From the sequence record PP418985.1: a stretch of DNA of 64,000 nt; one strand, 5' to 3'. A program made the position numbers and the translations under genes. The notes beneath the pieces are model-generated. The model had not been told where the DNA came from, made no database searches, and saw nothing but the letters and a program-made list of their open reading frames with translations. Below, piece by piece: positions 3,512-56,082 of the stretch. The stretch's first letter is position 1; every line of letters starts with the position of its first letter. The stretch is from Escherichia phage UPWr_E1.

Positions 3512-3521
3512 GGGTTGACAT

Positions 3522-4121: not shown

Positions 4122-4125
4122 TATT

Positions 4126-4648: not shown

Positions 4649-4657
4649 GGGGTATGT

Positions 4658-5362: not shown

Positions 5363-5398
5363 AGTCTAGTAAATTAATCAAAAGAAGGAATAGTGAAT

Positions 5399-6367
5399 AT
5401 GTTTAAACGCCAAGATTCTTCCAAACTGCAAGCTCAACTGGCCGCACTGAAAGGTGGCAACGGTTTCTCCAAAGAAGATCCGAAAGAGTGGAAGATTAAG
5501 ACTGATGCAGCAGGTAACGGTGAAGCCCTGATTCGCTTCCTGCCGTCTAAAACAGAAGACGGTCTGCCGATTGTGAAACTGGTAAACCATTCCTTCAAAG
5601 TTAATGGTAAATGGTATTGGGAAAACTGCTCAAGCACCCACGGTGATTTTGATTCTTGCCCTGTGTGCAAATATATTAACGAAAAAGATCTGTACAATAC
5701 CGATAAAACCGAATGGCAACTGATTAAGCGTAAGGCATCTTACTACGCAAATATTCTGGTACTGAAAGATCCTCAAGCACCGGAAAATGAAGGTAAAGTA
5801 TTCAAATTCCGCTTCGGTCAGAAAATTTATGATAAGATCGTTGCGATGGTGAACGTGAATACCGATATGGGCGAAGTTCCGGTCGATGTAACTTGTGTGT
5901 TCTCCGGTGCTAACTTCCTCCTGAAAGCTAAGAAGGTTGATAAACACCAGAACTATGATGATTCTCGTTTCATGCAGCAATCACAGCTTCCGAAAATTGA
6001 AGACGAAGCATATCAGAAATATCTGATGGAAAACATGGTTGATCTGGGCGAGATTGTAGCGCCTAGCCAGTTTAAACCGTTCGATGAACTGGAAACCAAA
6101 TTTAAGAAAACTATGGGCGTTTCTATGGTAGCTGGTGCTGCGGCTTCCAGTGCTGCGGCAGCGATTAACAGCCAGCTTGACGATTTTGACGCTGCTTTAA
6201 ATGCATTCGATTCTGGTATTACCGCAGCTAGCACTGTAGTTGGTATTAACGCAGCTAACACGGCGTCAGATTCTTCCGCTGATGATCTGATGGCATCTCT
6301 GGACCTGGGTGGCGGTACTTCCTCCGCTTCTGATCTGGATGACCTGGACTCTCTGTTAGCGATGTAA
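5399..6367 (+). CDS. 32: gp32 single-stranded DNA-binding protein
   Basis: Start MFKRQDSS at the ATG 6 nt inside track ORF 5393; LIRFLPSK, zinc-binding [11 protein letters not shown], acidic S/D-rich C-terminus; T4 gp32-like. Confidence 0.9.
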
Positions 6368-41498: not shown

Positions 41499-43001
41499 TT
41501 AAATCTCGATTGTTTTCGTGGCATATTCGAATCGATCGGTGTTGTAAATTTTTATTCTTTCAAGCGCGTGTTTAAGAGCATAATTAAGGTGGCTAAACTG
41601 TTTCTTAGCATTCTTGCTCTTTGTCTTAACCGCCAAATGATCGATAAGATCCCAAACGGTAGCAATATCCTTAGAACCATGTTTACGCAATGCACGACCG
41701 ATACTCTGACGAACGATAGTTGATTCCTTCACTGGATGACCGAAAATAACATGATGCAAGTTCTTGATGGAAACACCAGTAGAGAACACACCATAAGACG
41801 CAACACAAATGATCCCTGTTTCCCCTTCCGCTAATTTCTTAAATTCATCACGTTCTTCTGTCTTAACTCCACCGTCAATATAATAAACCTTGTCGTGTAC
41901 CTTCTGCAACGCATCATACATAAGTTTTCCGTGCTTAGTATTGCGGAACATCAGGAATACGTTTTCGCCCTTCTTAGCGAGTTTTAGCGCCAAATTGCAA
42001 GCAAACTTATTTCGTCGTGGGTTAGACGTAATATACTTGATCTCTTCCGCATATTCTCTCCCCTTAACCGCGCTACATTCCTCATCGGTATAACGAAGGA
42101 AAAGACAGTTAATTTTCAGTTTTGTCACTTGGCCTTCTTCCATCAGGCGGTCAATACTCACGATCTTAGAAATATCACCGAAAAGCCCGACATACTGCAT
42201 CATGTTAGCTTTCCCGTCACGAGGGGAACCAGTCATGCCGATCTTAAATTGGCAATGATCCATATCAGTAACGATGTTTAGCAGGTTTTTAGCAGTGGCC
42301 TTGTGACATTCATCAACAATCACCATCCCGAATTGTTTAAACCATTCACGAGGTTGTTTACATGCTGATTGCCACGTACTAACAACGATCAGGCGATCTC
42401 CTACATTCTTAGTAGTACCACTCATGATAGTATGAATTGCCTCATAAGGAAACTGGCGATAATCAACAAAATCATCACGCATTTGCAGCACTAGCGACGT
42501 GGTAGGAACGATGATCAGCACTTTCCCTTCGTAGTTCTCTAAGTACCAGCGAGACAACATACAAGCAATCGCAGATTTACCAGCGGACGTAGGCAAAACT
42601 AACATACGGCGTTTATGATGAATACCTTCAAAGACAGCCTTTGATTGATACCAATGCGGGGTGATCCTGTTAGCACCGGAATATAATTCTAAGTCGTTAC
42701 ACCATTTTGTAATTTCTTCTTCTGTAACCTGTTCTTTCTCGAATAAGCGAGGGTCTACCCATACGCTATAGCCCATATTTTTAGCGAATATTCCCACGGT
42801 TTTAGTTAGGCCGATTGGCAACTTTCCATTGTAATCTAAAAGACGAATACGCCCATCCCATCCGCCGTATTTTACTCGTTTTTGAAACCGTGCACCTTCA
42901 ACTTCAAAGCTAAAATAATCCCTCATTTCTAATAAAATTGAATCGCTACATTCAATTTGAACATGGGAGTAGTTCAGAAAGTGAATTTTAATATCTTGCA
43001 T
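41499..43001 (-). CDS. uvsW: UvsW DNA helicase (SF2, DExH)
   Basis: About 500 aa from MQDIKIHF (track ORF begins at an upstream GTG); Walker A LPTSAGKS, DECH box, RKHGSK; T4 UvsW-like. Confidence 0.85.
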   Translation of the reverse strand: MQDIKIHFLNYSHVQIECSDSILLEMRDYFSFEVEGARFQKRVKYGGWDGRIRLLDYNGKLPIGLTKTVGIFAKNMGYSVWVDPRLFEKEQVTEEEITKWCNDLELYSGANRITPHWYQSKAVFEGIHHKRRMLVLPTSAGKSAIACMLSRWYLENYEGKVLIIVPTTSLVLQMRDDFVDYRQFPYEAIHTIMSGTTKNVGDRLIVVSTWQSACKQPREWFKQFGMVIVDECHKATAKNLLNIVTDMDHCQFKIGMTGSPRDGKANMMQYVGLFGDISKIVSIDRLMEEGQVTKLKINCLFLRYTDEECSAVKGREYAEEIKYITSNPRRNKFACNLALKLAKKGENVFLMFRNTKHGKLMYDALQKVHDKVYYIDGGVKTEERDEFKKLAEGETGIICVASYGVFSTGVSIKNLHHVIFGHPVKESTIVRQSIGRALRKHGSKDIATVWDLIDHLAVKTKSKNAKKQFSHLNYALKHALERIKIYNTDRFEYATKTIEI

Positions 43002-43036
43002 AGCGAATAGCCTCACTCAATAAATACAGTATACAA

Positions 43037-43044
43037 ATATTTAT
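43037..43044 (-). promoter_or_regulatory. Late promoter TATAAATA upstream of uvsW
   Basis: Plus-strand tatttata about 35 nt upstream of the uvsW start; coordinates +/-1. Confidence 0.45.
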
Positions 43045-43071
43045 ACAAACACCCCCAATCAGGAGAATAAC

Positions 43072-43797
43072 ATGTTTGATAAAGAATATTTCGAAGAACT
43101 CCGCGCTATTGCGGCGTCCGACGACAAAGAAGCACAGAAAACAGCTAAAACAGAATTAGCTGACTACGCAAAACAATTTGATATCAAGGTCAAAAAGACG
43201 TTATCACTAGAGAACATGATCGAGTTCGTAGAAACCGAATTAACTAAACTGGCTTCCGAAATGGAAGAAGAAACTCCGGCAGAAGGAACCAGTATTAACG
43301 ATCTTATTCTGGCAGCAGATACCGCAGATGATAAAGTGGTATTCGACGAAGTTGATCCGTCTCTGGTTGAAGCAATGAAAGAACCCGAGATCGTCATTGA
43401 AGAAACAAAAGAAGAATCTCCAGCAGTTGAACCAGTGGTCGAAGAAGTTAAGTCAGTTGTTGAAGAAGCGCCGGAAGTTAAAGTGGAATCTCCGGTAGCC
43501 AACATTTTCTCCGACGAAGCAGAGCATCGTTCCCCAGCACATGACACTGATTCATTTTGTGATCTTACTGGTTTCCGTCCGACCATTTGCTTGATCGGTG
43601 GCGGTCGTGGTTACTACTCCTGCCCGTGGTGGATTTTCGACTGGATTGTTAATACTCCAGATTGGAAGAAGTACCCAGAGCGTTTCCCGCACGCGTATGT
43701 ACACGACACCCTCAAGTCACTGATCTATTATATCAAACGCGATGGGTCTGTCAAGGTGCGAGAGACTAAACACAGCCAATTCCACACTCTTAAATAA
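43072..43797 (+). CDS. Hypothetical protein at the T4 inh position (acidic N-terminal half, Cys/Trp-rich C-terminal domain)
   Basis: 241 aa; located upstream of hoc-like gene as T4 inh; identity not verified. Confidence 0.5.
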   Translation: MFDKEYFEELRAIAASDDKEAQKTAKTELADYAKQFDIKVKKTLSLENMIEFVETELTKLASEMEEETPAEGTSINDLILAADTADDKVVFDEVDPSLVEAMKEPEIVIEETKEESPAVEPVVEEVKSVVEEAPEVKVESPVANIFSDEAEHRSPAHDTDSFCDLTGFRPTICLIGGGRGYYSCPWWIFDWIVNTPDWKKYPERFPHAYVHDTLKSLIYYIKRDGSVKVRETKHSQFHTLK

Positions 43798-43875
43798 TAA
43801 GAGTGTAAAAGTTGTGAAATATTTGTTATGTTTTTAATTGTAGTTCCGTTATGCAATTAAAAAAGAGGATATTAC

Positions 43876-46419
43876 ATGTCTAACAAAATCAATGTATTAC
43901 ATCAAACAGAAGGTCCGGTTTATGGTTCCGTTGGTCGTCCACTTCTGTTAAAGATTGTTGTCAGTACAGCAGATTTTAAAGATTTTATAGCAGAATGGAA
44001 GCTGAACGGTGTAAATGTGCCAGCAGAACAAATTTCCGACGCGGATCAGTCTCTGTATATTGAGGAAATGCGAGAAAATCAATTTGGTACATATACATGT
44101 CACATTAAACTGAAAGACGAACCACAGGTCGGTGTAGATATTAAGCCTATTCTTGTACAGCGTAGATTTTTTATTGCACCGCAAGATCAGTCTCCGACGT
44201 ATATTAAAAAACGAATCGGCGAAGAATTAACCCTATTCGCAACACCAGCAATTGAACTAGGTCAACACCCAGAGTTTCAATGGTATCGAAATCATATTCC
44301 GGTAGAACCAGAAAAAATCGAGGACAACCGAACCGTTCATATTGCCCGTGTTGGTCTTATTGATTTTGGCAATTATACGTGTCGTGTTACTGTCCGTGGT
44401 GAACCAGCATCACAATATTGGATTAATCCAATTATTGTAGAAAAGAATGATACCCCTCCTGTAGTGCATCTTAGCGAAGAATATCCTAGCTCTATTACAG
44501 TAGCAGAGGATTCAGCGGTACATCTCAATGTACTTGTTACATCAGATGATAAAGTATCGCCTATTGAGTATACGTGGATTCATAACGGTAGGATTGTTAT
44601 CGAAGAAAACGGAAACTCTTTGGCAATTCCGCATATTCGAAAAGATCAGGAAGGTATCTGGCGTCTTGAGGTAAAACAAGGTGACACTACGGTGTATTCT
44701 AAAGATTGTCATATTGAGGTTGATAGTCAACCATTCTTTAGGATCACACGTCAACCGCAAACTCTTAACGTGTCTGGCGGTGCTTTGGGTTTATTCAGCG
44801 TTGATTATAGAACAAACTATTCACCTGTAAAGATCCAGTGGTATCGTAAAAAGAATACAGAACAGGAGTTTACACCAATTGTAGGTGAGACTAATAAAGA
44901 TCTTCATATTACACCAGCTACTACTGAATTAAACCGAGCACGCTACAAAGCTCGTATCACGTATGGCACAGACCAATACAGAGATTCAGAAGAAGCTGAA
45001 TTGCTAGTAGGTGAAGCATTAACTATTAGAATCACCAAACAACCACAAGCTCTACAAAACGTCCGAGTTTCTTCCTCACAGACGATCACTTGTGAAGCTG
45101 AAACAAACTATGAACATTATCGCTTAGATTATCAGTGGTATAAAGATAACGAATTAATGCCAGGCAAAACATCTAATGTATTGCACTTCTCATCAATCAA
45201 AAAGACAGATGAGGGGCAATATAAGTGTATTGCATCAATGGGTATTTCTGGTCATCGAATTACCGCAGAATCATCACCAGCACAGGTGACAGTAGACAAT
45301 TCAAAGGCATCACTGACTATCACTAAACAGCCAACTGGTGCAACAATTCGCACTGGTGGGTCGTGGTCTATTTCGGTCGAAGCAACATCAAACGATGCAC
45401 TACCGATTCGCTATCGCTGGTTTAAAGACGGCGAAGATCTATTCCCACAAGGCGTTGAACAAAAAAACGTTTACGGTGAAGACCATGCTCAACCTGATTC
45501 GACTGGTGTATATACTTGTCGCGTTTCGGTTGGTTTTGGTGATCACCGAGCGTCTCAAATGTCACATCCAGCAAGGGTGCTAATTAGCGATAATGTGGAA
45601 ATTGTGCCGAATGACTTACAGGTCACCGCACATCCTCATGATAATGACGTTAAGTATAATCAGCGTGTTATCTTAACAGCAAGATCTCAAAATAGCATCG
45701 GGTTAAAACCACATATTCAATGGAAAAAGGATGGTGTTGCTATTCCGGGTGCAAATTCAGAGACTTTAGTCATTGAGCACGCGAAACCATTGGATGCAGG
45801 GGTTTACACCGCAGATATTACCGCAGCAGAAAAAACGGTAACAACCAATCCGGCTACAGTTACTGTAGCAGAGCACAGCAATATTAATATCTTAAAACAT
45901 CCAGTGGATGTGGTTGCAAAAGAAGGACAAACCACCGACATTGTATTGGAAGCTCATGCGGAACATTCTGACGGTGAAACCGAAGTTAGTTATCAGTGGC
46001 ATAAAATTAAAGATGGCGTAGACACTGAAATAAGAGATGCAACAAATAAAACTTTAGTTATCCCTCATGCACAGATCAGCAAGCAAGCTCATCAAGCGAC
46101 CTATTACGCCGAGATAAAAGAAGAGAATGGACACGTTAAACATAGCGAAAAAGTTCGAGTGGTGTTTACTACCGCGAAATTAAAACGCTATGTTCACCCG
46201 ATCCCGTGGCGACGTACATCCTTCCAGTATCAAGGCTATTGGGTTATGGATGAGATTGATCGCTGTAATCGTGAAGGGCTTAACTGGCTTGAGGACTTTA
46301 CGCACACCAAATATCCAGAAGAGATCGAAACTATTGCTGCATCATTGCATCATTATTCAAATACTCATGTATTAGAATCTCGTAATGGTTATCTGGTTGA
46401 TGGTACTCAACTATTTTAA
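43876..46419 (+). CDS. hoc: Hoc-like capsid decoration protein with multiple Ig-like domains (long form)
   Basis: 847 aa; repeated I-set Ig-like units (W[YF]K[DN]G...Y.C); C-terminal capsid-binding-like YVHPIPWRRTSF domain shared with next gene. Confidence 0.65.
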   Translation: MSNKINVLHQTEGPVYGSVGRPLLLKIVVSTADFKDFIAEWKLNGVNVPAEQISDADQSLYIEEMRENQFGTYTCHIKLKDEPQVGVDIKPILVQRRFFIAPQDQSPTYIKKRIGEELTLFATPAIELGQHPEFQWYRNHIPVEPEKIEDNRTVHIARVGLIDFGNYTCRVTVRGEPASQYWINPIIVEKNDTPPVVHLSEEYPSSITVAEDSAVHLNVLVTSDDKVSPIEYTWIHNGRIVIEENGNSLAIPHIRKDQEGIWRLEVKQGDTTVYSKDCHIEVDSQPFFRITRQPQTLNVSGGALGLFSVDYRTNYSPVKIQWYRKKNTEQEFTPIVGETNKDLHITPATTELNRARYKARITYGTDQYRDSEEAELLVGEALTIRITKQPQALQNVRVSSSQTITCEAETNYEHYRLDYQWYKDNELMPGKTSNVLHFSSIKKTDEGQYKCIASMGISGHRITAESSPAQVTVDNSKASLTITKQPTGATIRTGGSWSISVEATSNDALPIRYRWFKDGEDLFPQGVEQKNVYGEDHAQPDSTGVYTCRVSVGFGDHRASQMSHPARVLISDNVEIVPNDLQVTAHPHDNDVKYNQRVILTARSQNSIGLKPHIQWKKDGVAIPGANSETLVIEHAKPLDAGVYTADITAAEKTVTTNPATVTVAEHSNINILKHPVDVVAKEGQTTDIVLEAHAEHSDGETEVSYQWHKIKDGVDTEIRDATNKTLVIPHAQISKQAHQATYYAEIKEENGHVKHSEKVRVVFTTAKLKRYVHPIPWRRTSFQYQGYWVMDEIDRCNREGLNWLEDFTHTKYPEEIETIAASLHHYSNTHVLESRNGYLVDGTQLF

Positions 46420-46426
46420 TATTATT

Positions 46427-46446
46427 GGTCGCCCTTCGGGGCGACC
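46427..46446 (+). other. UUCG-tetraloop RNA hairpin between the two hoc-like genes
   Basis: ggtcgccc-ttcg-gggcgacc; no clear T-run. Confidence 0.35.
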
Positions 46447-46463
46447 TTAACGGAGTTATTTTT

Positions 46464-47696
46464 ATGGCATTTACAGTAGCACTAAAATCAAATAAAAAAT
46501 GTTTCCTTGCTGGCGATACATTTAAATTAACGGCTACATTAGCTGGGGTGGAAGATGGTCCGGTCCCATCAAATGTTACCTATGCATGGACTAAAAATGA
46601 TCAGCCAATTGAAAATGAATCAAATGTATTAACGGTCTCTAACGCAACAGCCGAGAGCGCCGGAAAATATAAAGTATCCGTTACTGACACAGACACACAA
46701 GAAGTGGTAGAATCTGCGGTTGTGTCAATGGCAGAAGCAGAATTAGTAGTTAAAATTAATCATCCATCTAGCTACGTCGCATTCGATGAGGCGGTAGAAT
46801 TAACAACTACGGTTTCATATTCAACCGGATTTGCACCGTCTAGCAATTACCAGTTGCATTATAAATGGGAACAAGATCAAACAAATTTAAACCATAGCGA
46901 AAGCACATTATCGATCAGCAACTTCGTCGATGACAACAATGGCGTTTATAAGGTTACTGTATGGGGCGAGTCAGAAACATCAGCGGACAGCGCCAGTGTT
47001 AAACTTGCAGCAATCTCTATATCTGTAGTTGAAGATGTACCACTGGCAAAAACCGTCGCAATGGGTAAACCGATCACACTACCTTATCGCACGATGGGTG
47101 TTTCTATCGGTGACACGTCAGGTCTTCCGGCATTATCAACTAAACAGTCATGGTATTTGCAGCGAGAAGGACAACCGCGCCCGACACTGATCGGGAGTGA
47201 GGTTGGGGAGGCATTGGAAGGGTTTTCTATCATGCCTAACGGCTATTTGCACAAAGAAGCTGCAACAATGGACGACACCGCTAACTTTTGGTGTATCGTA
47301 GAGTTGCTTCAAGAAATTGACGGGCAGCCAGTACCAATCGAAGAAAAAGGTAGCTCTCATTGCGCACTGGAAGTTGTAGAATCACTTCATAAGATGTTCC
47401 GGTATGTGCACCCGATCCCGTGGCGCAAAACTTCGTTTATCTATATTGGATGGTGGGTATTCGACGAGATCGTTAAATTCAATGAGGCAGGGTTAGAATG
47501 GAGAAACCGTGAAGTTTACGAGGATAGCAAATATGCAAGCGACATCGAGACGATCGCGGCAGCGGAAGAAAAATATAGTGATTGCACTTGCATGGAATCT
47601 CGCAATGGTTTCATGTATCAGTCCAAAGAGTTCCATAAACTGGACCGAGAGACATTAGAGCGTGTCCTGCGCATTCGTGAAACGCCTCCTGCTTAA
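46464..47696 (+). CDS. Second Hoc-like protein (short form)
   Basis: 410 aa from MAFTVAL; Ig-like repeats plus the same C-terminal YVHPIPWRKTSF domain. Confidence 0.6.
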   Translation: MAFTVALKSNKKCFLAGDTFKLTATLAGVEDGPVPSNVTYAWTKNDQPIENESNVLTVSNATAESAGKYKVSVTDTDTQEVVESAVVSMAEAELVVKINHPSSYVAFDEAVELTTTVSYSTGFAPSSNYQLHYKWEQDQTNLNHSESTLSISNFVDDNNGVYKVTVWGESETSADSASVKLAAISISVVEDVPLAKTVAMGKPITLPYRTMGVSIGDTSGLPALSTKQSWYLQREGQPRPTLIGSEVGEALEGFSIMPNGYLHKEAATMDDTANFWCIVELLQEIDGQPVPIEEKGSSHCALEVVESLHKMFRYVHPIPWRKTSFIYIGWWVFDEIVKFNEAGLEWRNREVYEDSKYASDIETIAAAEEKYSDCTCMESRNGFMYQSKEFHKLDRETLERVLRIRETPPA

Positions 47697-47707
47697 TGAA
47701 ATCTATC

Positions 47708-47732
47708 AGCCATCCTTCGGGGTGGCTTTTTT
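47708..47732 (+). terminator. Rho-independent terminator
   Basis: agccatcc-ttcg-gggtggc followed by tttttt. Confidence 0.6.
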
Positions 47733-47743
47733 GTTTTTAGTGC

Positions 47744-47771
47744 TTGACAGTGTGATTTAGTGGCTTATAAT
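47744..47771 (+). promoter_or_regulatory. Early promoter
   Basis: TTGACA-16-TATAAT. Confidence 0.5.
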
Positions 47772-47811
47772 GACACACATCAACAGGGCGTTACCCTATG
47801 AGGAAAATATT

Positions 47812-47883
47812 ATGAATATGGGGTTGAAAATGGCTTTAATAACTGTTACTGTCCTATTCGTTGTTGTGTTTATGAATGTATGA
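47812..47883 (+). CDS. Tiny hydrophobic peptide, 23 aa
   Basis: RBS gaggaaaa; MNMGLKMALITVTVLFVVVFMNV. Confidence 0.25.
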   Translation: MNMGLKMALITVTVLFVVVFMNV

Positions 47884-47891
47884 GGTGAAGT

Positions 47892-48089
47892 ATGAATGAG
47901 ATTGTACGATTGATCAAAGAAACACCAATCGAGATGTATTTTCTGGCTTTGGTTGCAACAATGGTCTATCAGCTAGTCGCATGTCATGTATGGAAATCAG
48001 AAAATGCGTTTATCCGGTTTTTTGGTACTGTCATGATCCAGTTTCCGGTACTGATCACTATCCTGTTAATCGTCAATGAGGCGAAGTAA
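47892..48089 (+). CDS. Small membrane protein, 65 aa
   Basis: RBS gaggtgaag; two hydrophobic segments. Confidence 0.5.
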   Translation: MNEIVRLIKETPIEMYFLALVATMVYQLVACHVWKSENAFIRFFGTVMIQFPVLITILLIVNEAK

Positions 48090-48364
48090 TGGACAAGAAA
48101 ACAGCGTTAATGGTTTACATGCTACGCGAAGACCACGGTCTTAATTTTGTTGATATTGCTAAAAAGATTGGCGGGTTCAGCGGACAAGATGCGGCTAAGG
48201 CATGGTTGATGGTAAAAGATGCACGAGAGGCTTACGCCAACCGTGAAAAGGTTGTTTATCGTAAACACCACATCAACAAAAAATTTAAAAATAAAGTTCA
48301 AAAACGTGTTGACAAGCCAAATAACACTGTTATAATGGACGCATTCAAACGGGCAATGTCCTGA
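48089..48364 (+). CDS. Small basic protein, possible helix-turn-helix DNA-binding protein
   Basis: 91 aa; LNFVDIAKKIGGFSGQDAAKAW segment; lysine-rich C-terminus. Confidence 0.4.
   Translation: MDKKTALMVYMLREDHGLNFVDIAKKIGGFSGQDAAKAWLMVKDAREAYANREKVVYRKHHINKKFKNKVQKRVDKPNNTVIMDAFKRAMS
48309..48336 (+). promoter_or_regulatory. Early promoter inside 3' end of upstream ORF
   Basis: TTGACA-16-TATAAT. Confidence 0.45.
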
Positions 48365-48410
48365 TTTGTAATTAATATTCTGAATAACTAATCAATAGAG
48401 GTGACTAATT

Positions 48411-48848
48411 ATGAAATTCCGCAAAAACCACGTAGCAATGAAAAAAGCAATGTTTGAAGCATTCAAAGCAGTTGATCAGGGCGGTGTTACTCTGATTGAG
48501 CAAATTAATGTTGATGTTTGGCAGTCTCCGGCGATCACTTGCTCACGTCTGGCGACGGCTGGTCTTCTGAATGTTCACAGCTCTACAGCATACGACGAAG
48601 CATTGCAAGTTATTAAGGCTTTCGCTGGCGACGTTACCAGCAAGTGGGTCTATGAGAATAAAGGTGAAATTGCGGTTGCTCACGTAGGCAACAATATCCA
48701 GATGGAAATCAAGATTAAGGAAGGGTCTAAACGCAATCAGATGCTTGTTCGCTTCCAGCCATACAAAACTAACGTAGTGCCGGATGATCTGGTCATCTCT
48801 AAGAGTAATGTTACCATTCGCCGAAATCAGATCGTTATCAACAAATAA
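48411..48848 (+). CDS. Hypothetical protein, 145 aa
   Basis: ORF with RBS agaggtga. Confidence 0.55.
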   Translation: MKFRKNHVAMKKAMFEAFKAVDQGGVTLIEQINVDVWQSPAITCSRLATAGLLNVHSSTAYDEALQVIKAFAGDVTSKWVYENKGEIAVAHVGNNIQMEIKIKEGSKRNQMLVRFQPYKTNVVPDDLVISKSNVTIRRNQIVINK

Positions 48849-48857
48849 TTAACATTA

Positions 48858-48881
48858 GCCGTCCTTCGGGGCGGCTTTTTT
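48858..48881 (+). terminator. Rho-independent terminator
   Basis: gccgtcc-ttcg-gggcggc followed by tttttt. Confidence 0.6.
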
Positions 48882-48934
48882 GTATATATCATTAACATAA
48901 TTTTAGTTTACATATGCACATTATTAATACAGTT

Positions 48935-48960
48935 TGATTAAATTATGATCAAAACGAAGA
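48935..48960. repeat. 26-bp direct repeat, copy 1, in AT-rich intergenic region
   Basis: tgattaaattatgatcaaaacgaaga; same 26-mer at 49084. Confidence 0.7.
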
Positions 48961-49083
48961 AAGATCTTTAGAACATAGAAAATGTATCTTTGATTAATTA
49001 TTAATCACCACATATTGTAACGCAAATGTTATACTCCGTAGGAGTTCGCGAAGCGATATCCTTTTGTGTAGTTTTTACATATA

Positions 49084-49109
49084 TGATTAAATTATGATCA
49101 AAACGAAGA
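49084..49109. repeat. 26-bp direct repeat, copy 2
   Basis: Identical 26-mer; flanks also similar (tttacatat). Confidence 0.7.
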
Positions 49110-49262
49110 CTTATCTTATAGAATAATAAAAATTTGTTTCGAACATTTATTAATCAATTACTAGAAGTGTTTTATTGCTCGCTGTGCTCGCTTCCGCTAC
49201 GCGGATACTTGTATTTGTTATTAACTTGTAGTATGATATTGCTTTCTATGGAGGAAAATATT

Positions 49263-49850
49263 ATGTTTGACCAGTTACAAGATCTATTTGGAGTAAAACC
49301 ACTTCGTAGATGTGCTTTAATCGGCTCTAGAAAAGCGCCTAGCGACATTTTGATAATGGCTAGTACCATTGGGAGGGTATTGTCAGAAAATCGCGTTGTA
49401 GCGCATTCTGGAGGGGCTTACGGTATGGACAATGCTTTCATGAAGTATTACGATCCAGATTATAGAAAAATTTTCATTCCAAATTGGAAGTTTTATGACC
49501 ACAAGCATAACGGTCATGATGTGATTGCATGGCAAACCTTAGAACAAAAGAATCTGGCGATGGATGAATTAGAACACGTTTATGATAATCCTCGTTCTAT
49601 ACCGTTATACATGCAAAATTTATTTTCTAGAAATGTTGCTCAAGTCTTAGGTGAGACACTTGATGATCCTGTAGATTGTGTGTTATTCTGGGCGAAAGAA
49701 GTTAATGGAATCGTTTCGGGAGGAACTCGAATTGCTGTTTATGTTGCCCGTAGACATGGGATACCATGTTTTAACTTATATCATCAAGAAAATAGATCCG
49801 CCGTCGAAAAAATCTTGGGCGGATCTGATTTGTCTTGGTTAGATATTTAG
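49263..49850 (+). CDS. DprA/Smf-like Rossmann-fold protein
   Basis: 195 aa from ATG after RBS ggagga; ALIGSRKAP..VAHSGGAYGMD and NLFSRNV..SGGTRIAV match DprA core motifs. Confidence 0.45.
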   Translation: MFDQLQDLFGVKPLRRCALIGSRKAPSDILIMASTIGRVLSENRVVAHSGGAYGMDNAFMKYYDPDYRKIFIPNWKFYDHKHNGHDVIAWQTLEQKNLAMDELEHVYDNPRSIPLYMQNLFSRNVAQVLGETLDDPVDCVLFWAKEVNGIVSGGTRIAVYVARRHGIPCFNLYHQENRSAVEKILGGSDLSWLDI

Positions 49851-51092
49851 TTAAGCGTTGTCAATCTCAAGTGGTGGCAGTTCGATTCCTAAAATGTAGG
49901 ACATTTCAGAGCGTCCAGCCATTTTACCCCAATCGTCACCCTTGATGATCTGGTGTTCTTCCTGATCAACTTTTGATGTATATGGGTTGACAGAGAGTGA
50001 ATAACGATTCATAATAGCTACATGATGCTGGAAGCTATTAGGATCAATTACGCTCTTATACGCGCCAGCGCCATCGGCTTCTGTGTATGGGGAGTAGAAC
50101 AGCGAACCTACGCTCTCCATATCACCGATCATGTGCTTACAGCCAACTAGCATATAATCGAACGGCGTTACCGTGTCTGCGTACACTTCCAGACCGCAAC
50201 GTAGACGTCCTTCGCTTAGAGCGTTGTCGGTTTCTTCCATCCATCCGGTAGACTGCAACAGACCAACTACGCGAGAAGATGCTAAAACGTATGTGCCAGC
50301 AAAGGAGGAAGTACGCAACATTTGATTGCTCATTTCGCAAGCATAGCGGTAAAGTTCACGAGCTTGTTTTGGTGCATCCTGAACGCCAACGAGAGAAAGT
50401 ACACCATCAGTGGTGATTCCTTTAATTTTATAGCGAGTTGATACAGTGATCAACTTCTGCATAATATCTTTGTTGATCTCTTCGGAAGCGACAGTAGCCA
50501 GAAGGTCGATCACAGAATTTTCAGAATTGATTTGGCTTGCCTCAAGATCCTGCATTAATTCAGTGGTGAACGAGGTTTTCAGTTTACGAGAACCTACATT
50601 AACTTGCCACTTGTCAAACTGCATAGAGGTAGACGCAATTTCGGTGTTTTTATCTTCAAAGTATTCTACCGATGCACAATCGCTATAGAAACGAATTTTG
50701 TTTGTCATTACGCCTTTAAAGATCGCAGCTTCTGGAGTTGCGGAATCTTCGCTAACTCGACCAGCAACAACAGCTTGATAAACTACGTCGCCAGATTTAA
50801 ACAGATCACCGATCTTGTATTCTTTTTCCTGTGAAAATTCTTCGATCTCTGTACGATCACCAGCCGCGCCACCGTAGGTTGCAGCAGTTCGGAAAGTCAT
50901 CTGACCATCACGATTAAGATAACGTAGGCCGTACAATGCAGATACTGGTTGATCCGTTGGCTGGATTGCTACCAGATCAGAGAAAATCAGGTTGTTTACC
51001 GCGCGAGTTAATGATAATAGTTGCGGTCGCGCTGTCTGGTTAGCTACTGAGGAAGTAGATTCCCGCAACAGTTCAGTAAAAATATGAGTCAT
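49851..51092 (-). CDS. 24: Head vertex protein gp24
   Basis: 413 aa from MTHIFTELL; gp23-like capsid fold; position downstream of gene 23. Confidence 0.75.
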   Translation of the reverse strand: MTHIFTELLRESTSSVANQTARPQLLSLTRAVNNLIFSDLVAIQPTDQPVSALYGLRYLNRDGQMTFRTAATYGGAAGDRTEIEEFSQEKEYKIGDLFKSGDVVYQAVVAGRVSEDSATPEAAIFKGVMTNKIRFYSDCASVEYFEDKNTEIASTSMQFDKWQVNVGSRKLKTSFTTELMQDLEASQINSENSVIDLLATVASEEINKDIMQKLITVSTRYKIKGITTDGVLSLVGVQDAPKQARELYRYACEMSNQMLRTSSFAGTYVLASSRVVGLLQSTGWMEETDNALSEGRLRCGLEVYADTVTPFDYMLVGCKHMIGDMESVGSLFYSPYTEADGAGAYKSVIDPNSFQHHVAIMNRYSLSVNPYTSKVDQEEHQIIKGDDWGKMAGRSEMSYILGIELPPLEIDNA

Positions 51093-51129
51093 GTTTATGA
51101 ATCCTGTATTTGCCTTAATGGATATATCA

Positions 51130-51137
51130 TATTTATA
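51130..51137 (-). promoter_or_regulatory. Late promoter TATAAATA for gene 24
   Basis: Plus-strand tatttata about 40 nt upstream of the gene 24 start. Confidence 0.55.
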
Positions 51138-51140
51138 CAA

Positions 51141-51168
51141 AAAGAAAAGGGAATCCCGAAGGATTCCC
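51141..51168 (-). terminator. Rho-independent terminator (minus strand)
   Basis: gggaatcc-ttcg-ggattccc followed by tttt on the minus strand. Confidence 0.6.
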
Positions 51169-51176
51169 AAATAAAA

Positions 51177-51329
51177 TTACTTCTTCCTAGAAACATTATC
51201 AACGCTACGGTTAACTTTGTTTACAAGATTAATTGCATGATCAGAACGAATAATTGCATAAGCTAATGCTAACATCAATTCGTCGTATTCCTTACGAGTC
51301 ATAACATAGCTGTTTTCTTTCTTACTCAT
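51177..51329 (-). CDS. Hypothetical small protein, 50 aa
   Basis: Strong RBS AAGGAGG; MSKKENSYVMTRKEYDEL...; below track cutoff. Confidence 0.4.
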   Translation of the reverse strand: MSKKENSYVMTRKEYDELMLALAYAIIRSDHAINLVNKVNRSVDNVSRKK

Positions 51330-51339
51330 GCATTCCTCC

Positions 51340-52272
51340 TTATGGAGAATTTGGGGTTAATTCAGGGAACAGCGTGCCAAAACCAAAATTACCGCTAGCG
51401 TCACGCTGGAATGTCATAACAAGGTCGACATAAACCGGATCTGTAAATCTATCAAATCTATCCGACCCAATATCAACCATGAACGCTAATTTAATCTCAT
51501 TAGAATTTGAGATCGCAGCGTCAGCACATGCACCAAAAATTACCTGAGTATCTTTTGCCGTATATGCATTGACCTGTATGTTGGTTGGTTTCATTACATC
51601 GTTAGACAAACCAGATAGTTCTACTCGTCCATTAAATGACGCCAGACTTTGACCACCGCCTAGATAATGAATATGACCACCTTGTGAAGATTGTGTCCAG
51701 TCCATTAGCATAACCTTAAATCTAGCCTCAAAACGCCCTTCCACGTAATATCGACCAGTTTCAAAGTTTTGTCTAATTGGTGTCCATGTGATGTGTGGTT
51801 TTCCGCTTACAGGATCGACAAGAGTCACACCTACGGCTGGCTTAATACTGACACTATCAAATGAACGTGATAGCCAATTCCATGTTTGATTGTCTAGGTT
51901 TGGCAATTGTGGAATATTCAATCCATCTAATCGGCTGTGTGCTCGTGCTGCTTCCGATTCTGCGGTAGTCGCTTTAGTCAGTGCATCAGTTGCTTTGCTC
52001 ATGGATTGCCCTGCCGTTCGATCGGCAACATCAGCAGTTGATTTTGCAATCTCTGCCGTTCGATGTGCTGAACTTGCTGTTTCTGTTATTACGTCATCGC
52101 ACGCAATAACAAAATCAATTACAGGATCGATCAATTGAGTGTTGATTGAGTTGGAAATTCGTTCAACATCACTTTCCATTAGAGCATTAGATTCATTTCC
52201 TGTGAAATGAGTAATTTCACCTTGAACAAAATCATTTTGCAACTTGCTGATCTTTGCTTTAATATCGGTCAT
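51340..52272 (-). CDS. Fiber-like protein (helical N-terminus, beta-rich C-terminal domain)
   Basis: 310 aa; Ala/Thr-rich helical N-terminal third then globular domain; RBS GGGTGA. Confidence 0.55.
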   Translation of the reverse strand: MTDIKAKISKLQNDFVQGEITHFTGNESNALMESDVERISNSINTQLIDPVIDFVIACDDVITETASSAHRTAEIAKSTADVADRTAGQSMSKATDALTKATTAESEAARAHSRLDGLNIPQLPNLDNQTWNWLSRSFDSVSIKPAVGVTLVDPVSGKPHITWTPIRQNFETGRYYVEGRFEARFKVMLMDWTQSSQGGHIHYLGGGQSLASFNGRVELSGLSNDVMKPTNIQVNAYTAKDTQVIFGACADAAISNSNEIKLAFMVDIGSDRFDRFTDPVYVDLVMTFQRDASGNFGFGTLFPELTPNSP

Positions 52273-52287
52273 GAATCACCCCGCTAA

Positions 52288-54006: not shown

Positions 54007-54013
54007 ATAATAA

Positions 54014-54322
54014 TTACCCCCGTTTAGCAAGATACACGGTTACAGTAGAATCATTGGAAACAGATTTTACTTTTGCCCTAATAAATGACCATAATGTTTC
54101 AAACGCTCCACCATCAGTTGCATATTCATTACCATCAGCTTTCAATTCTGAAATAGTGAACCAACCTTTGCCATCTAAGGAACCTTCTAACGAGGCTTCC
54201 GCAATGACTTTTTGCCCTTCCCGTGCACCCTCTACGGTCATCTGTACTGTCATGTGCGTACTATGAACGCAGTTTACCGACGCGGAAACGGCTGGAGTTT
54301 TGGTCTTTATAAGTGTGTGCAT
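54014..54322 (-). CDS. Hypothetical protein, 102 aa
   Basis: RBS AAGGGGAG; preceded by a late promoter. Confidence 0.55.
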   Translation of the reverse strand: MHTLIKTKTPAVSASVNCVHSTHMTVQMTVEGAREGQKVIAEASLEGSLDGKGWFTISELKADGNEYATDGGAFETLWSFIRAKVKSVSNDSTVTVYLAKRG

Positions 54323-54483: not shown

Positions 54484-56082
54484 TTAGCAACCTTTAACCC
54501 ATACACGGCGGAAGTATGCGTTTTTACCTACGCTGTCTTTGCTCAACATACCGGAGGTGATGCGAGCGGACGGTGCCTGGGTTTTGCTGTCTGCAAACGG
54601 GTTAATACCGATGCCGTAGCGAGTCTTGAAGCCCAGAACCGGGTGGAAAGACTGCGGATCGGTTGCACGCAGCGGAGTCAGAGCAACATACGGCGCATAG
54701 TAGATACCAGCATCCATTTCGTTGTCGCCTTTGTAGCCTACGGTGAAGTAGTCCTGACGAGCATACTGGTCGATGAATACTTTGTACTTACCAGCCAGAA
54801 CACCAGCGAAAACAGCTTTAGTGGTGTCGGTATTCAGACCTTTTGCAGCACCCTGCATAGCAACACTGATACCCTGATCAGCAGAAGCCAGAATGTTTAC
54901 AACGTTACGGGAAGCGATAACAAAGTTACCAGCACCGCGACCAGTCTGACGAGCGATTTCAGCAGCTTCTTTGTCGATCTGGTAGATCAGAGATTTGAAG
55001 GATTCACCAGCCCAACGAGCACCGCGAGTATCGATCGGGTCTTGCAGGTCAAATACACCAGCTTTAGAACCAACGGTCTGAGTCATACCAGTCTTACCAA
55101 CCTGTGCGGTAAAGTTGATAACGTCAACGATTTCACGGTTGATTTCCAGCAGAACTTCGTTAGCCAGGATAGCATTCAGTTCAGCGTCAGCATCCATACC
55201 GTGTACAGCACGCAGATCCTGCGCAACTTCGATAGAATAACGAGCTTTCAGTTGGCGAGATTTCGCTTCAACAACCTGTTTGTCAATACGCATCGACATT
55301 TCAGCCCACGGGTTATTGCTGGAACCGTTAAAGCCTTCCTGAATTTCGGCAATGGAAGTAGCCATACCGAAAGCGATTTCAGCCAGTTTACCTTCTTCCA
55401 TCAGCTTCATGACCACTTCATCTTCGGATTCATCACCTGATTTCTGCGGAGTTACTGCGCTAGAAGTTACGTTTTGCAGATATGCAATACCAGTGTCTGC
55501 AAACGTGTGATGTACAATGTCTCCCGGTTGGATCTGGGTAGATAATGCCAGTTTAGCGAATGCAGTACCAGTAGGAGAACCAGTCGTTGCATTTTTTGCT
55601 GCCAGAGAGCTATGGAACACATCTGGCGCATACATCGGGTGGAATGCTTCACGAACATTTTTAGGATTACCACCAGCCAGCGGGTCTGGACCGTATACAG
55701 AACGGATTGCAAAGATCTGGCTAGTCGGGGTGCTCATAGGCTGAACGCCACAAATATCAAATGCAATCAGGTTAGGAATAGCACGGCGAACCATACCGAT
55801 AACAGCCGGACCTACGTTAGTGATTGCACCGCTAGTCTGACCTGCCGCAATCTGGGATGCGTCGTAACCGTGGTCGCCAGCAACTTCGGCTTCGGCGATA
55901 AAACCACCGAATGCTTCAACAACTTTTTCATCCTTATAGATCGGATCTACAGCAAAATCCGCTTCCTGAGATTCCAGAATTTTAGCAACCAGTTTCTGCT
56001 TAGACGCAGTTGCGATTTCCGGCAGTTTTTCGTTCTCCAGCAGCGGGGACCATTTTTCCATCAGTTCTTTGGTAGTTTTCAT
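54484..56082 (-). CDS. 23: Major capsid protein gp23
   Basis: 532 aa; long stretches match T4 gp23 (MVRRAIPNLIAFDICGVQPM, NPWAEM, AKSRQLKA.YSIE.AQDLRAVHGMDADAEL, YFTVGYKG.NEMDAGIYYAPYVALTPLR). Confidence 0.95.
   Translation of the reverse strand: MKTTKELMEKWSPLLENEKLPEIATASKQKLVAKILESQEADFAVDPIYKDEKVVEAFGGFIAEAEVAGDHGYDASQIAAGQTSGAITNVGPAVIGMVRRAIPNLIAFDICGVQPMSTPTSQIFAIRSVYGPDPLAGGNPKNVREAFHPMYAPDVFHSSLAAKNATTGSPTGTAFAKLALSTQIQPGDIVHHTFADTGIAYLQNVTSSAVTPQKSGDESEDEVVMKLMEEGKLAEIAFGMATSIAEIQEGFNGSSNNPWAEMSMRIDKQVVEAKSRQLKARYSIEVAQDLRAVHGMDADAELNAILANEVLLEINREIVDVINFTAQVGKTGMTQTVGSKAGVFDLQDPIDTRGARWAGESFKSLIYQIDKEAAEIARQTGRGAGNFVIASRNVVNILASADQGISVAMQGAAKGLNTDTTKAVFAGVLAGKYKVFIDQYARQDYFTVGYKGDNEMDAGIYYAPYVALTPLRATDPQSFHPVLGFKTRYGIGINPFADSKTQAPSARITSGMLSKDSVGKNAYFRRVWVKGC

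What the first reader, a model, noticed from the sequence alone, without database searches (positions are those of the whole stretch)
43876..47696. Two adjacent Hoc-like genes of very different length sharing a capsid-binding C-terminal domain
The 847-aa and 410-aa proteins both consist of Ig-like repeats and end with a conserved domain (YVHPIPWR.TSF.Y.G.WV.DEI...N..GL.W). T4 Hoc is far shorter with three Ig domains. The long form has roughly eight Ig-like units, implying much longer capsid fibres or two alternative decoration proteins. A UUCG hairpin separates the genes.
Basis: partly seen in the sequence, partly recalled or inferred. Interest (0 to 1): 0.5.

Follow-up and report, generated by a model that had tools for sequence, protein, structure and literature searches.

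The report
Paired long and short Hoc genes
This RB49-type (T4-like) phage encodes two head-decoration fibres, one of normal length and one about twice as long, that share the same capsid anchor; the pair is real and both genes look functional, but the arrangement is already known in related phages, and the lab phage RB49 has simply lost the long gene.

Summary
Window 43876-46419 encodes an 847-aa protein and 46464-47696 a 410-aa protein. Both are strings of Ig-like domains (eight and three) ending in a domain homologous to the T4 Hoc capsid-binding domain. A stable CUUCGG hairpin (46427-46446) lies between them.

The window is a Krischvirus (RB49 group). The short protein is the orthologue of RB49 Hoc (PDB 3SHS). 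Both proteins keep the T4 Hoc residues that contact gp23*, and the gp23 docking loop is conserved. Both evolve under purifying selection (dN/dS 0.04-0.18).

The inh-long-short order was found in five phage records and in all seven metagenomic contigs inspected. The other 53 Krischvirus records, including RB49, Phi1 and JSE, carry only a frameshifted deletion remnant of the long gene.

The Ig arrays are old, highly divergent alleles. They reassort independently between nearly identical flanks. The hairpin covaries and is broken where the long gene is lost.

Two Hoc genes of unequal length in one phage are already published (Muldoon and PG7; Fokine 2023), and JK32 annotates both genes as Hoc. 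This is therefore a new member of a known kind. Virion incorporation was not tested.

A fibre-like gene module between gp24 and gp23 was present in all nine loci that keep the long hoc and where that region could be seen.

The parts
43072..43797 (+). inh (prohead protease inhibitor), the gene immediately upstream on the same strand. It is probably the first gene of the transcription unit.
   Evidence: PHROG 1051, E 6.6e-77. It is 99% identical to Brandy and SSG23 Inh. No TATAAATA late-promoter match lies on the + strand between inh and the end of the short hoc.
43876..46419 (+). Long hoc: 847 aa, 95.9 kDa, pI 5.8, net charge about -21.
   Evidence: Full-length homologues of 841-847 aa occur in 5 phage records and in 13 clusters of the metagenome protein collection.
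43876..46170 (+). Long Hoc Ig array: eight Ig-like domains, at approximately aa 1-96, 97-190, 191-284, 285-379, 380-475, 476-571, 572-666 and 667-765.
   Evidence: AF2 secondary structure and pLDDT. Foldseek matches to eight-domain Ig ectodomains. Each unit carries the recurring W...G.Y.C/A pattern. Identity between domains is only 14-33%, and TRF finds no DNA tandem repeat.
46171..46416 (+). Long Hoc C-terminal capsid-binding domain (aa 766-847). It carries Y772, H774, R779, Y788, W789, D792 and the E834-S-R-N-G838 loop.
   Evidence: Matches T4 Hoc residues 292-366 of 5VF3_Z, E 6.4e-15. The contact residues are invariant in 14 homologues. It is 78-99% identical among alleles, while the Ig part is 53-98% identical.
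46427..46446 (+). Intercistronic 8-bp hairpin with a C(UUCG)G tetraloop. It starts 8 nt after the long hoc stop codon and ends 18 nt before the short hoc ATG.
   Evidence: The 71-nt stretch around it folds at -19.7 kcal/mol, z -3.5. It sits at the same position in all 11 two-hoc loci. In 9 distinct sequences, 5 of 8 pairs carry compensatory changes and 95.8% of cells are paired, against 26-56% when the partner is slid. The 3' arm is missing in Phi1 and kvi, which lack the long gene. In this window it is followed only by TT, not a T run.
46452..46455 (+). Shine-Dalgarno GGAG of the short hoc, 8 nt before the ATG.
   Evidence: Read directly from the sequence. GGAG or GGGA is conserved in the aligned relatives.
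46464..47696 (+). Short hoc: 410 aa, 45.6 kDa, pI 4.75, net charge about -24. It is the orthologue of RB49 Hoc.
   Evidence: Residues 1-305 match PDB 3SHS (RB49 Hoc, three Ig domains), E 5.1e-99. PHROG 1149, E 2.9e-62.
47379..47693 (+). Short Hoc C-terminal capsid-binding domain (aa 306-410). It carries Y314, H316, R321, W330, W331, D334 and the E378-S-R-N-G382 loop, followed by a 26-aa tail.
   Evidence: Residues 285-386 match T4 Hoc 264-363 of 5VF3_Z; whole-protein E 1.6e-17.
47708..47737 (+). Intrinsic-terminator-like site that ends the unit: AGCCATCC-TTCG-GGGTGGCT followed by TTTTTGTTTT.
   Evidence: A 12/12 sigma-70-like promoter follows at 47744-47771.
55015..55071 (-). The Hoc docking loop of the major capsid protein gp23 (gene 54484-56082, minus strand). 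Window residues G338-R356 correspond to T4 gp23 G326-R344.
   Evidence: Window GSKAGVFDLQDPIDTRGAR against T4 GSKAGVFDFQDPIDIRGAR is 17 of 19 identical. D336, P337 and R344 of T4 are conserved. The role of this loop is taken from PMC10385173.

Best explanation
These are two paralogous head-decoration (Hoc) genes of a Krischvirus.

Each protein is a monomeric fibre. A string of Ig-like domains points outward from a C-terminal domain of about 80 aa, which docks on the centre of a gp23* hexamer. Both C-domains keep the T4 contact residues, and only one Hoc fits on each hexamer. The two proteins therefore most likely compete for the same roughly 155 sites. The result would be capsids carrying a mixture of T4-sized fibres (three Ig domains, about 18 nm) and fibres about twice as long (eight Ig domains, roughly 40 nm by scaling from T4).

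The Ig arrays are the variable, adhesin-like part. They exist as old, very divergent alleles. These alleles are swapped by homologous recombination, with the breakpoints seen so far falling in or near the conserved C-domains and flanks, and the long and short arrays reassort independently.

The genes are probably transcribed together, downstream of inh, and read through a conserved CUUCGG hairpin. That hairpin most likely marks or protects a 3' end for the long-hoc message, acting as a leaky terminator or stabiliser, and so helps set the long:short ratio.

The long gene is dispensable. One ancestral deletion, later shortened by a further 75 nt, removed it from the RB49, Phi1 and JSE lineage.

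Shown here: homology, domain architecture, conservation of contact residues and of the docking loop, purifying selection, allele reassortment, hairpin covariation, and the deletion remnants. Inferred: virion incorporation, competition for sites, fibre length, co-transcription, and the hairpin's function.
For: Homology and architecture
- The C-domains match T4 Hoc 5VF3_Z (E 6.4e-15 and 1.6e-17). The short protein matches RB49 Hoc 3SHS (E 5.1e-99).
- The T4 contact residues Y293, H295, R300, W310, D313 and the ESRNG355-359 loop (PMC10385173) are present in both proteins. W309 is W in the short protein and Y in the long one.
- The gp23 docking loop is 17/19 identical to T4.
- The AF2 model shows eight Ig-like units (pLDDT 82.8) and matches eight-domain Ig ectodomains.
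- Both proteins are acidic, as reported for Hoc proteins.

Selection and conservation
- dN/dS is 0.05-0.14 for the long gene and 0.04-0.18 for the short gene on unsaturated pairs.
- The order inh-long-short holds in 5 phage records and in all 7 metagenomic contigs inspected, down to 56% identity.

Cassette behaviour
- Against Brandy, the Ig parts are 65% (long) and 56% (short) identical in protein, while Inh, gp24.3 and ORF165 are 98-99% identical. dS is 1.3-3 inside the Ig parts and 0-0.15 in the flanks.
- Contig L011 carries the window's long allele (98%) but the JK32-type short allele (99% to JK32, 57% to the window).

Loss of the long gene
- 53 of 58 Krischvirus records keep only the first 12 or 35 codons joined out of frame to the last 37-42 codons. 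Both deletion types share the same right junction.

Hairpin and transcription
- The hairpin covaries and is broken where the long gene is lost.
- No late-promoter consensus lies between inh and the terminator at 47708.
Against: - No virion proteomics, cryo-EM or binding data exist for any two-hoc Krischvirus in the searched literature.
- The two C-domains are only 56% identical, and each has its own invariant residues. Different affinities, or different preferred hexamers, cannot be excluded.
- The AF2 model is poor for parts of the long C-domain (pLDDT below 50 at 771-787 and 833-847), so its fold rests on sequence homology.
- Co-transcription is inferred from the absence of consensus motifs. 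Only the T4 late consensus and a sigma-70 consensus were scanned. The nearest + strand matches upstream of inh each have one mismatch.
- In most relatives the hairpin is followed by 3-4 T, so it could terminate efficiently there.
Confidence: 0.72

Rival explanations
1. Sub-functionalised anchors. The two C-domains have diverged so that the long and short Hoc occupy different classes of site (for example vertex-proximal against other hexamers, or different orientations). They would then decorate the capsid in a fixed pattern instead of competing.
For: The C-domain cores are only 56% identical. Each paralogue keeps its own invariant residues across alleles: 78-99% identity within the long set and 67-99% within the short set. 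The T4 W309 position is Y in every long Hoc and W in the short one. In T4, vertex-proximal hexamers already bind Hoc differently (PMC10385173). The short protein has an extra 26-aa C-terminal tail.
Against: All residues reported as highly conserved contacts are shared, and the central ESRNG loop that touches all six gp23 subunits is identical. The phage has a single gp23 with a single docking loop. RB49-type phages manage with the short form alone.
Confidence: 0.15
2. Only the short Hoc decorates the capsid. The long protein is made but is not a stable virion component, for example because it binds weakly or acts elsewhere as a free Ig-rich protein.
For: The long gene is dispensable: it is deleted in 53 of 58 Krischvirus records. 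The W309-equivalent is changed to Y. AF2 confidence in its C-domain is low. There are no proteomic data.
Against: The C-domain of the long protein is its most conserved part (95% aa against Brandy, while the Ig domains are 54-73%). That is expected if anchoring is its essential function. dN/dS is 0.05-0.14. T4 Hoc is also dispensable in the laboratory (PMC10385173), so dispensability says little.
Confidence: 0.08
3. The hairpin is an efficient intrinsic terminator that splits the locus into two independent transcription units, so the short hoc has a promoter of its own.
For: G2248 annotates the hairpin as a terminator. In 10 of 11 loci it is followed by 3-4 T. A hairpin of the same kind followed by a T run ends the unit at 47708.
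Against: In this window only TT follows the stem, and the terminator scan did not call it. Only 17 nt separate the stem from the ATG, and they hold the ribosome-binding site. No sigma-70 or late-promoter match lies there. In RB49-type phages the short hoc sits behind the remnant with the hairpin broken and nothing new inserted.
Confidence: 0.2
4. The long gene is a recent acquisition or a decaying duplicate, a pseudogene in the making, and not an ancestral functional gene.
For: It is absent from most sequenced isolates.
Against: The 53 records without it carry its frameshifted first and last codons, so they lost it. It is an intact ORF of 841-847 aa in every carrier, down to 56% identity. Purifying selection is strong. 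Its domains are only 14-33% identical to each other and to the short Hoc's domains, so nothing is recent.
Confidence: 0.02

Closest known systems
T4 Hoc (highly immunogenic outer capsid protein; PDB 5VF3/8T1X chain Z; Fokine et al. 2023, PMC10385173)
   Same: [quoted passage not shown] The protein is an N-terminal string of Ig-like domains, acidic, and encoded next to inh. The gp23 docking loop is conserved.
   Different: T4 has one hoc gene with three Ig domains. Here there are two genes, one with eight Ig domains. The Ig parts are barely alignable with T4.
RB49 Hoc (PDB 3SHS, three N-terminal Ig domains)
   Same: It is the orthologue of the 410-aa protein (E 5.1e-99 over residues 1-305). The genus, locus and domain count are the same.
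   Different: The window's Ig part is a different allele of the short gene; against Phi1, which carries an RB49-type short Hoc, it is 40-67% identical per domain. RB49 itself has lost the long partner and keeps only a remnant.
Shigella phage JK32 gp170 and gp169 (both annotated 'Hoc head outer capsid protein'), and the same pair in Brandy49, SSG23, SFHK24 and vB_EcoM_G2248
   Same: Identical gene order and sizes (846 aa plus 408-409 aa), the same hairpin position, and the same flanking genes.
   Different: The window's alleles are only 64-69% (long) and 60-66% (short) identical to them. Apart from JK32, the long gene is annotated only as 'hypothetical protein'.
Phages with two Hoc-like proteins of unequal length: Serratia phage Muldoon (1174 aa with 10 Ig, plus 314 aa with 2 Ig) and Enterobacter phage PG7 (233 aa plus 511 aa), both in PMC10385173; Enterobacter phage CC31, which carries a gene annotated hoc-B
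   Same: One genome encodes two proteins that share the Hoc capsid-binding domain but display different outward parts. Very long Ig strings are known.
   Different: The genera and domain numbers differ. PG7's second protein carries a lipase/acylhydrolase domain with the anchor at its N-terminus. Whether these pairs descend from the same duplication was not tested.
C(UUCG)G tetraloop hairpins of T4 intercistronic regions (Tuerk et al. 1988; cited from memory)
   Same: A G+C-rich stem closed by C-G around UUCG, placed between cistrons of a T4-type phage. Three such hairpins lie within 2.5 kb here, at 46427, 47708 and 48857.
   Different: This one has no T run in the window. Its function here is not established.

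Membership tests
Hoc (T4-type head outer capsid decoration protein) | A C-terminal domain homologous to the T4 Hoc capsid-binding domain (T4 residues about 281-376) | tested here: met
   Long residues 771-845 match 5VF3_Z residues 292-366, E 6.4e-15. Short residues 285-386 match 5VF3_Z residues 264-363, whole-protein E 1.6e-17.
Hoc (T4-type head outer capsid decoration protein) | The conserved gp23*-contact residues: Y293, H295, R300, W309, W310, D313 and the E355-S-R-N-G359 loop (PMC10385173) | tested here: met
   Short: Y314, H316, R321, W330, W331, D334, ESRNG378-382. Long: Y772, H774, R779, Y788 (W to Y), W789, D792, ESRNG834-838. All but Y788 are fully invariant in 14 long homologues.
Hoc (T4-type head outer capsid decoration protein) | An N-terminal linear string of Ig-like domains | tested here: met
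   Pfam Ig_3, Ig_2 and I-set hits. 3SHS match for the short protein. AF2 model with eight beta-sandwich units and Foldseek matches to multi-Ig ectodomains for the long protein.
Hoc (T4-type head outer capsid decoration protein) | A locus in the head-gene region next to inh, between uvsW and gene 24 | tested here: met
   The order is uvsW(-), inh, long hoc, short hoc, 24.3..., gp24(-), gp23(-).
Hoc (T4-type head outer capsid decoration protein) | Binds as a monomer to the centre of gp23* hexamers, one per hexamer, on the mature capsid | not testable with these tools
   Indirect evidence only: the gp23 docking loop is 17/19 identical to T4, with D336, P337 and R344 kept.
Hoc (T4-type head outer capsid decoration protein) | Dispensable for plaque formation | tested here: met
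   For the long gene only: 53 of 58 Krischvirus isolate records carry a natural deletion of it. This was not tested for the short gene.
Rho-independent (intrinsic) terminator | A G+C-rich hairpin immediately followed by a run of T | tested here: not met
   The hairpin is present, but it is followed by TTAACGGAG and the scan did not call it. Relatives have 3-4 T after it, so the feature is borderline across the family.
Conserved structured RNA element (C(UUCG)G hairpin) | Base pairing maintained through compensatory substitutions in homologous positions | tested here: met
   In 9 distinct sequences, 5 of 8 pairs have changes on both sides and 95.8% of cells are paired. None of 500 shuffles reached the covariation score, and slid controls gave 26-56% pairing. 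No Rfam family matches.

The most novel reading that the evidence does not exclude
The long Hoc and the unannotated fibre-like module between gp24 and gp23 (window 51177-54322) may form one accessory 'surface-adhesion package' of wild Krischviruses. On this reading the RB49, Phi1 and JSE lineage has lost the package.

Its presence would give virions a two-tier coat of short and long Ig fibres plus an extra trimeric adhesin. It would also contribute to phenotypes such as the unexplained O-antigen penetration and broad host range of Brandy49. Among the four phages compared in PMC9569957, Brandy49 is the only one that carries both elements.
Probability: 0.1. Interest if true: 0.6.

Novelty: new member of a known kind. 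Interest (0 to 1): 0.27.

Why it matters
Hoc is the standard display platform of T4 and the textbook example of Ig-like phage decoration (mucus or cell adherence, particle dispersion).

This locus adds little that is new in kind. It does add three useful facts.

1. RB49, the phage whose Hoc was crystallised and which is used as the reference for its genus, is a deletion derivative that has lost an eight-Ig-domain partner Hoc. ORF168.1-type 'hypothetical proteins' and PHROGs 19377 and 32100 are remnants of that gene.
2. The outward Ig arrays of both genes behave as exchangeable cassettes. The breakpoints seen so far fall in or near the conserved capsid-binding domains, and the two arrays reassort independently. 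This is the behaviour expected of adhesins, not of structural proteins.
3. Natural pairs exist, such as Brandy49 against Cognac49, Whisky49 and RB49. They differ in the presence of the long Hoc, so its contribution to adsorption or host range is directly testable.

Tried and rejected
- **Pseudogene or decaying duplicate:** rejected. The ORFs are intact in all carriers, and dN/dS is 0.04-0.18.
- **In-situ diversifying (positive) selection as the cause of the hypervariability:** not supported. dS is saturated (1.3-3) in the Ig parts while the flanks have dS 0-0.15, and mean dN/dS is low. The alleles are therefore old and imported by recombination. Site-wise tests were not possible.
- **Recent tandem duplication of Ig units:** rejected. 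Domain identities are 14-33%, and TRF finds no repeat apart from a 17-nt trifle.
- **A late promoter (TATAAATA) for either hoc gene:** no exact match on the + strand between 42900 and 47800. The one-mismatch sites upstream of inh are not convincing.
- **A sigma-70-like promoter between the genes:** only a 9/12 match that overlaps the stop codon.
- **Exact-sequence look-up of the long protein in public assemblies:** nothing found. The best match is a 98% metagenomic cluster.
- **Rfam search of 42900-49900:** only two chance-level hits, neither near the hairpin.
- **Literature searches for Hoc in Krischvirus, JK32, SSG23, Brandy or G2248:** no paper discusses the second Hoc and none gives virion proteomics.
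- **TTG 46425 as the start of the second gene:** rejected in favour of ATG 46464.
- **Two independent deletions of the long gene:** judged less likely than one deletion followed by a further 75-nt loss, because types A and B share the same right junction.
- **Co-occurrence of the long hoc with the gp24-gp23 module as evidence of functional coupling:** not accepted as evidence. Each loss appears to be a single event.

Full report
**What is in the sequence**

The window carries, on the + strand:
- inh (43072-43797)
- an 847-aa ORF (43876-46419)
- a 20-nt hairpin (46427-46446)
- a second ORF ending at 47696

The mechanical ORF list starts the second ORF at TTG 46425. The ATG at 46464 is preceded by GGAG and agrees with the annotated starts in related phages.

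After the second gene come a hairpin plus T run (47708-47737) and a perfect sigma-70-like promoter (47744-47771). The surrounding genes are uvsW.1 and uvsW on the minus strand upstream, and 24.3, gp24 and gp23 downstream. The locus is therefore the hoc position of a T4-type genome.

The window is a Krischvirus. It is about 95% identical in nucleotides to Brandy, RB49 and their relatives over 25 kb.

**Identity of the two proteins**

Both hit Ig profiles and PHROG 1149 'Hoc-like head decoration'.

The 410-aa protein is the orthologue of RB49 Hoc, whose three Ig domains are solved in PDB 3SHS (E 5.1e-99). Its C-terminus matches the T4 Hoc capsid-binding domain in 5VF3 chain Z. The C-terminus of the 847-aa protein matches the same T4 domain (E 6.4e-15).

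Fokine et al. 2023 (PMC10385173) list the T4 residues that contact gp23*: Y293, H295, R300, W309, W310, D313 and the loop E355-S-R-N-G359.
- The short protein has all of them.
- The long protein has all of them except W309, which is Y. That Y is conserved in at least 90% of the 14 long homologues aligned.

The site they bind on gp23 is T4 G326-R344. In this phage's gp23 it is 17 of 19 identical, with D336, P337 and R344 kept.

**Domain count**

An AlphaFold2 model of the long protein was built on 14 homologues and has a mean pLDDT of 82.8. It shows eight beta-sandwich units up to about residue 765, then a helix-containing C-domain that is only partly confident. Foldseek aligns it over about 850 columns with eight-domain Ig ectodomains such as contactin-2, Robo2 and DSCAM Ig1-8.

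The units are only 14-33% identical to one another and to the short protein's domains. There is no DNA-level tandem repeat. The array is therefore ancient.

In BLASTP the short protein aligns colinearly with long residues 511-840, that is Ig6-Ig8 plus the C-domain.

| Protein | Mass | pI | Net charge |
|---|---|---|---|
| Long Hoc | 95.9 kDa | 5.8 | about -21 |
| Short Hoc | 45.6 kDa | 4.75 | about -24 |

Both are acidic, as reported for Hoc proteins. T4 Hoc, with four domains, is 180 Å long (PMC10385173). By simple scaling a nine-domain protein would reach roughly 400 Å. That figure is an inference.

**Distribution**

Of 50,697 phage records, 58 are Krischvirus records that match this locus.

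- **Intact long gene: 5 records.** These are JK32, Brandy, SSG23, SFHK24 and G2248. In each the long gene is 846 aa and is followed by a 408-409-aa short gene.
- **Remnant only: 53 records.**
  - 12 records keep the first 35 codons joined to the last 42 or so (type A; for example Phi1, where it is annotated ORF168.1).
  - 41 records keep 12 codons joined to about 37 (type B; RB49, JSE, kvi and others).

Both types are out of frame. They share the same right junction (...CAGAA|CAAATACCCAGA...), so type B is most simply type A with a further 75 nt removed. The long gene was therefore ancestral and was lost once. PHROGs 19377 and 32100, which hit only the first 34 and last 37 residues of the long protein, are families made of these remnants.

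In the 5.8-billion-protein collection there are 13 clusters (at 90% identity) of full-length long Hoc. They are 841-847 aa long and 56-98% identical to the window's protein. All seven contigs inspected have inh, long, short in that order, including a 153-kb contig at only 56% identity. The window's exact protein is not on record.

**Evolutionary behaviour**

Against Brandy:

| Region | Protein identity | dS |
|---|---|---|
| Inh, gp24.3, ORF165 (flanks) | 98-99% | 0-0.13 |
| Long Hoc, whole protein | 68% | saturated (1.3-3) in the Ig parts |
| Short Hoc, whole protein | 66% | saturated (1.3-3) in the Ig parts |
| C-domains | 93-95% | intermediate (0.57-0.73) |

On closely related pairs where dS is not saturated, dN/dS is 0.05-0.14 for the long gene and 0.04-0.18 for the short one.

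Both genes are therefore under purifying selection. The divergence reflects old alleles brought in by recombination, not rapid change in place.

The two arrays move independently:
- Metagenomic contig L011 has the window's long allele (98% aa; 100% nucleotide identity over most of the first 850 nt) but the JK32-type short allele (99% to JK32, 57% to the window).
- The window's short allele is closest to that of L014 (78%), whose long allele is only 62% identical to the window's.

The breakpoints fall in or near the conserved long C-domain and hairpin region, and in or near the short C-domain.

**The hairpin**

GGUCGCCC-UUCG-GGGCGACC is stable: the 71-nt stretch that contains it folds at -19.7 kcal/mol, z = -3.5. 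A hairpin occupies the same place in all 11 two-hoc loci, with at least six different stems. Ten of the eleven have the CUUCGG loop.

In nine distinct sequences, 5 of 8 pairs show compensatory changes and 95.8% of cells pair. Slid controls give 26-56% pairing. In the deletion lineages (Phi1, kvi) the 3' arm is gone. This ties the element to the long gene and not to the short one.

In this window only TT follows the stem. In relatives, 3-4 T follow. No promoter consensus lies between it and the short gene's ATG, and no TATAAATA lies on the + strand anywhere from inh to the terminator.

My reading is a read-through hairpin that marks or protects a 3' end for the long-hoc message. I hold this with moderate confidence. 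No Rfam family matches.

**Comparison with what is known**

- JK32 already annotates both genes as Hoc.
- Fokine et al. 2023 describe Hoc homologues with up to 10 Ig domains. They also describe phages with two Hoc-like proteins of unequal length: Muldoon (1174 aa plus 314 aa) and PG7 (233 aa plus 511 aa).
- A tblastn search with the long C-domain finds 1,330 phage records and 1,575 places. Up to about 245 records therefore have a second Hoc C-domain, of which 53 are the Krischvirus remnants. CC31 carries a gene annotated 'hoc-B'.

The finding is thus a new member (new alleles) of a known kind. No paper found discusses the second Hoc of Krischviruses, the RB49 remnant, or virion proteomics for these phages.

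**A linked observation outside the finding**

Between gp24 and gp23 the window has about 3.2 kb on the minus strand (51177-54322) that RB49-type phages lack. It holds:
- a 50-aa ORF
- a 310-aa ORF with an alanine-zipper hit
- a 572/580-aa ORF with a collagen-like GxxGxx stretch
- a 102-aa ORF

The same five records that keep the long hoc keep this region. The other 53 have only remnants (12% coverage; in Phi1, window 51501-54314 is largely missing). Three metagenomic two-hoc contigs also have it.

An AF2 model of the 572-aa protein is of modest quality (pLDDT 62; residues 400-530 at about 80-92). Its Foldseek matches are:
- phi812 baseplate proteins (E 8e-10)
- the R1 pyocin fibre 6CL5 (E 3e-8)
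- TNF/C1q-like trimers for its C-terminal domain (TM 0.6-0.7)

It therefore looks like a trimeric fibre or adhesin. Every record that annotates it calls it 'hypothetical'.

Each loss looks like a single event, so the perfect co-occurrence is not independent evidence of functional coupling.

It is nevertheless notable that Brandy49 (MZ504876) carries both elements, while Cognac49, Whisky49 and RB49 carry neither. In PMC9569957, Brandy49 is the phage with the broadest host range and an unexplained ability to pass the O-antigen layer. The authors attribute this to its divergent gp38 and do not mention these genes.

**Verdict**

The mechanism is very probably ordinary Hoc-type decoration by two competing paralogues. 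The kind is already known. Interest is modest. It comes mainly from the RB49 deletion history, the cassette-like reassortment, the covarying hairpin, and the accompanying fibre module.

Noticed in passing
window 51177-54322 (minus strand), between gp24 (49851-51170) and gp23 (54484-56082): An insert of about 3.2 kb that RB49-type phages lack. It holds a 50-aa ORF, a 310-aa alanine-zipper ORF, a 572/580-aa ORF with a collagen-like stretch, and a 102-aa ORF.

The AF2 model of the 572-aa protein (pLDDT 62; C-terminal part 80-92) matches phi812 baseplate proteins, the R1 pyocin fibre and TNF/C1q-like trimers. It is probably a trimeric fibre or adhesin, and it is annotated 'hypothetical' wherever it is annotated.

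The insert is present in all 9 long-hoc loci where the region is visible and reduced to remnants in all 53 records that lack the long hoc.
   Followed up: partly
L002 (Phi1) 4880-5044; L007 (MIZ4) 1379-1543; L008 (SAP) 1395-1586: The small 'hypothetical proteins' annotated between inh and hoc in RB49-type phages (for example Phi1 ORF168.1) are frameshifted remnants of the long hoc gene. PHROGs 19377 and 32100 are built from such remnants.
   Followed up: yes
L011 (ENA ERZ27254722 k141_101816) 2190-6009, compared with window 43876-47696: This metagenomic contig has the window's long-hoc allele (98% aa) combined with the JK32-type short-hoc allele. Identity also steps down inside the long gene, from 100% to 88-95% after about window 44900. 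That indicates recombination breakpoints within the Ig array as well.
   Followed up: partly
window 46427-46446, 47708-47727, 48857-48876: Three G+C-rich hairpins, all with the same CTTCGG loop, lie within 2.5 kb on the + strand. The second and third are followed by T runs and look like terminators. The first is not.
   Followed up: partly
window 47744-47771 and 48309-48336 (+); 43754-43727 (-): Three perfect 12/12 sigma-70-type promoter matches (TTGACA-16-TATAAT). The first lies directly after the hoc terminator and probably drives the small ORFs 47892-48848. The minus-strand one lies inside inh.
   Followed up: no
window 43038-43045 (-): An exact T4 late-promoter consensus TATAAATA lies on the minus strand just upstream of uvsW, in the 55-nt divergent gap between uvsW and inh. 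The + strand there has only one-mismatch versions: AATAAATA at 43019 and TACAAATA at 43032.
   Followed up: no
Brandy49 (MZ504876; L005) against Cognac49, Whisky49 and RB49: Among the four phages compared in PMC9569957, Brandy49 is the only one that carries the long hoc and the gp24-gp23 fibre module. It is also the one with OmpA-independent, O-antigen-independent infection and the broadest host range. The paper attributes this to gp38 and does not mention either element.
   Followed up: partly
window 47892-48089 (65-aa ORF): This small ORF downstream of hoc exists in distinct allele groups. The window is 95-98% identical to Brandy and JK32 but only 81-83% identical to Phi1 and G2248. Its neighbours gp24.3 and ORF165 are 96-99% identical everywhere.
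   Followed up: no
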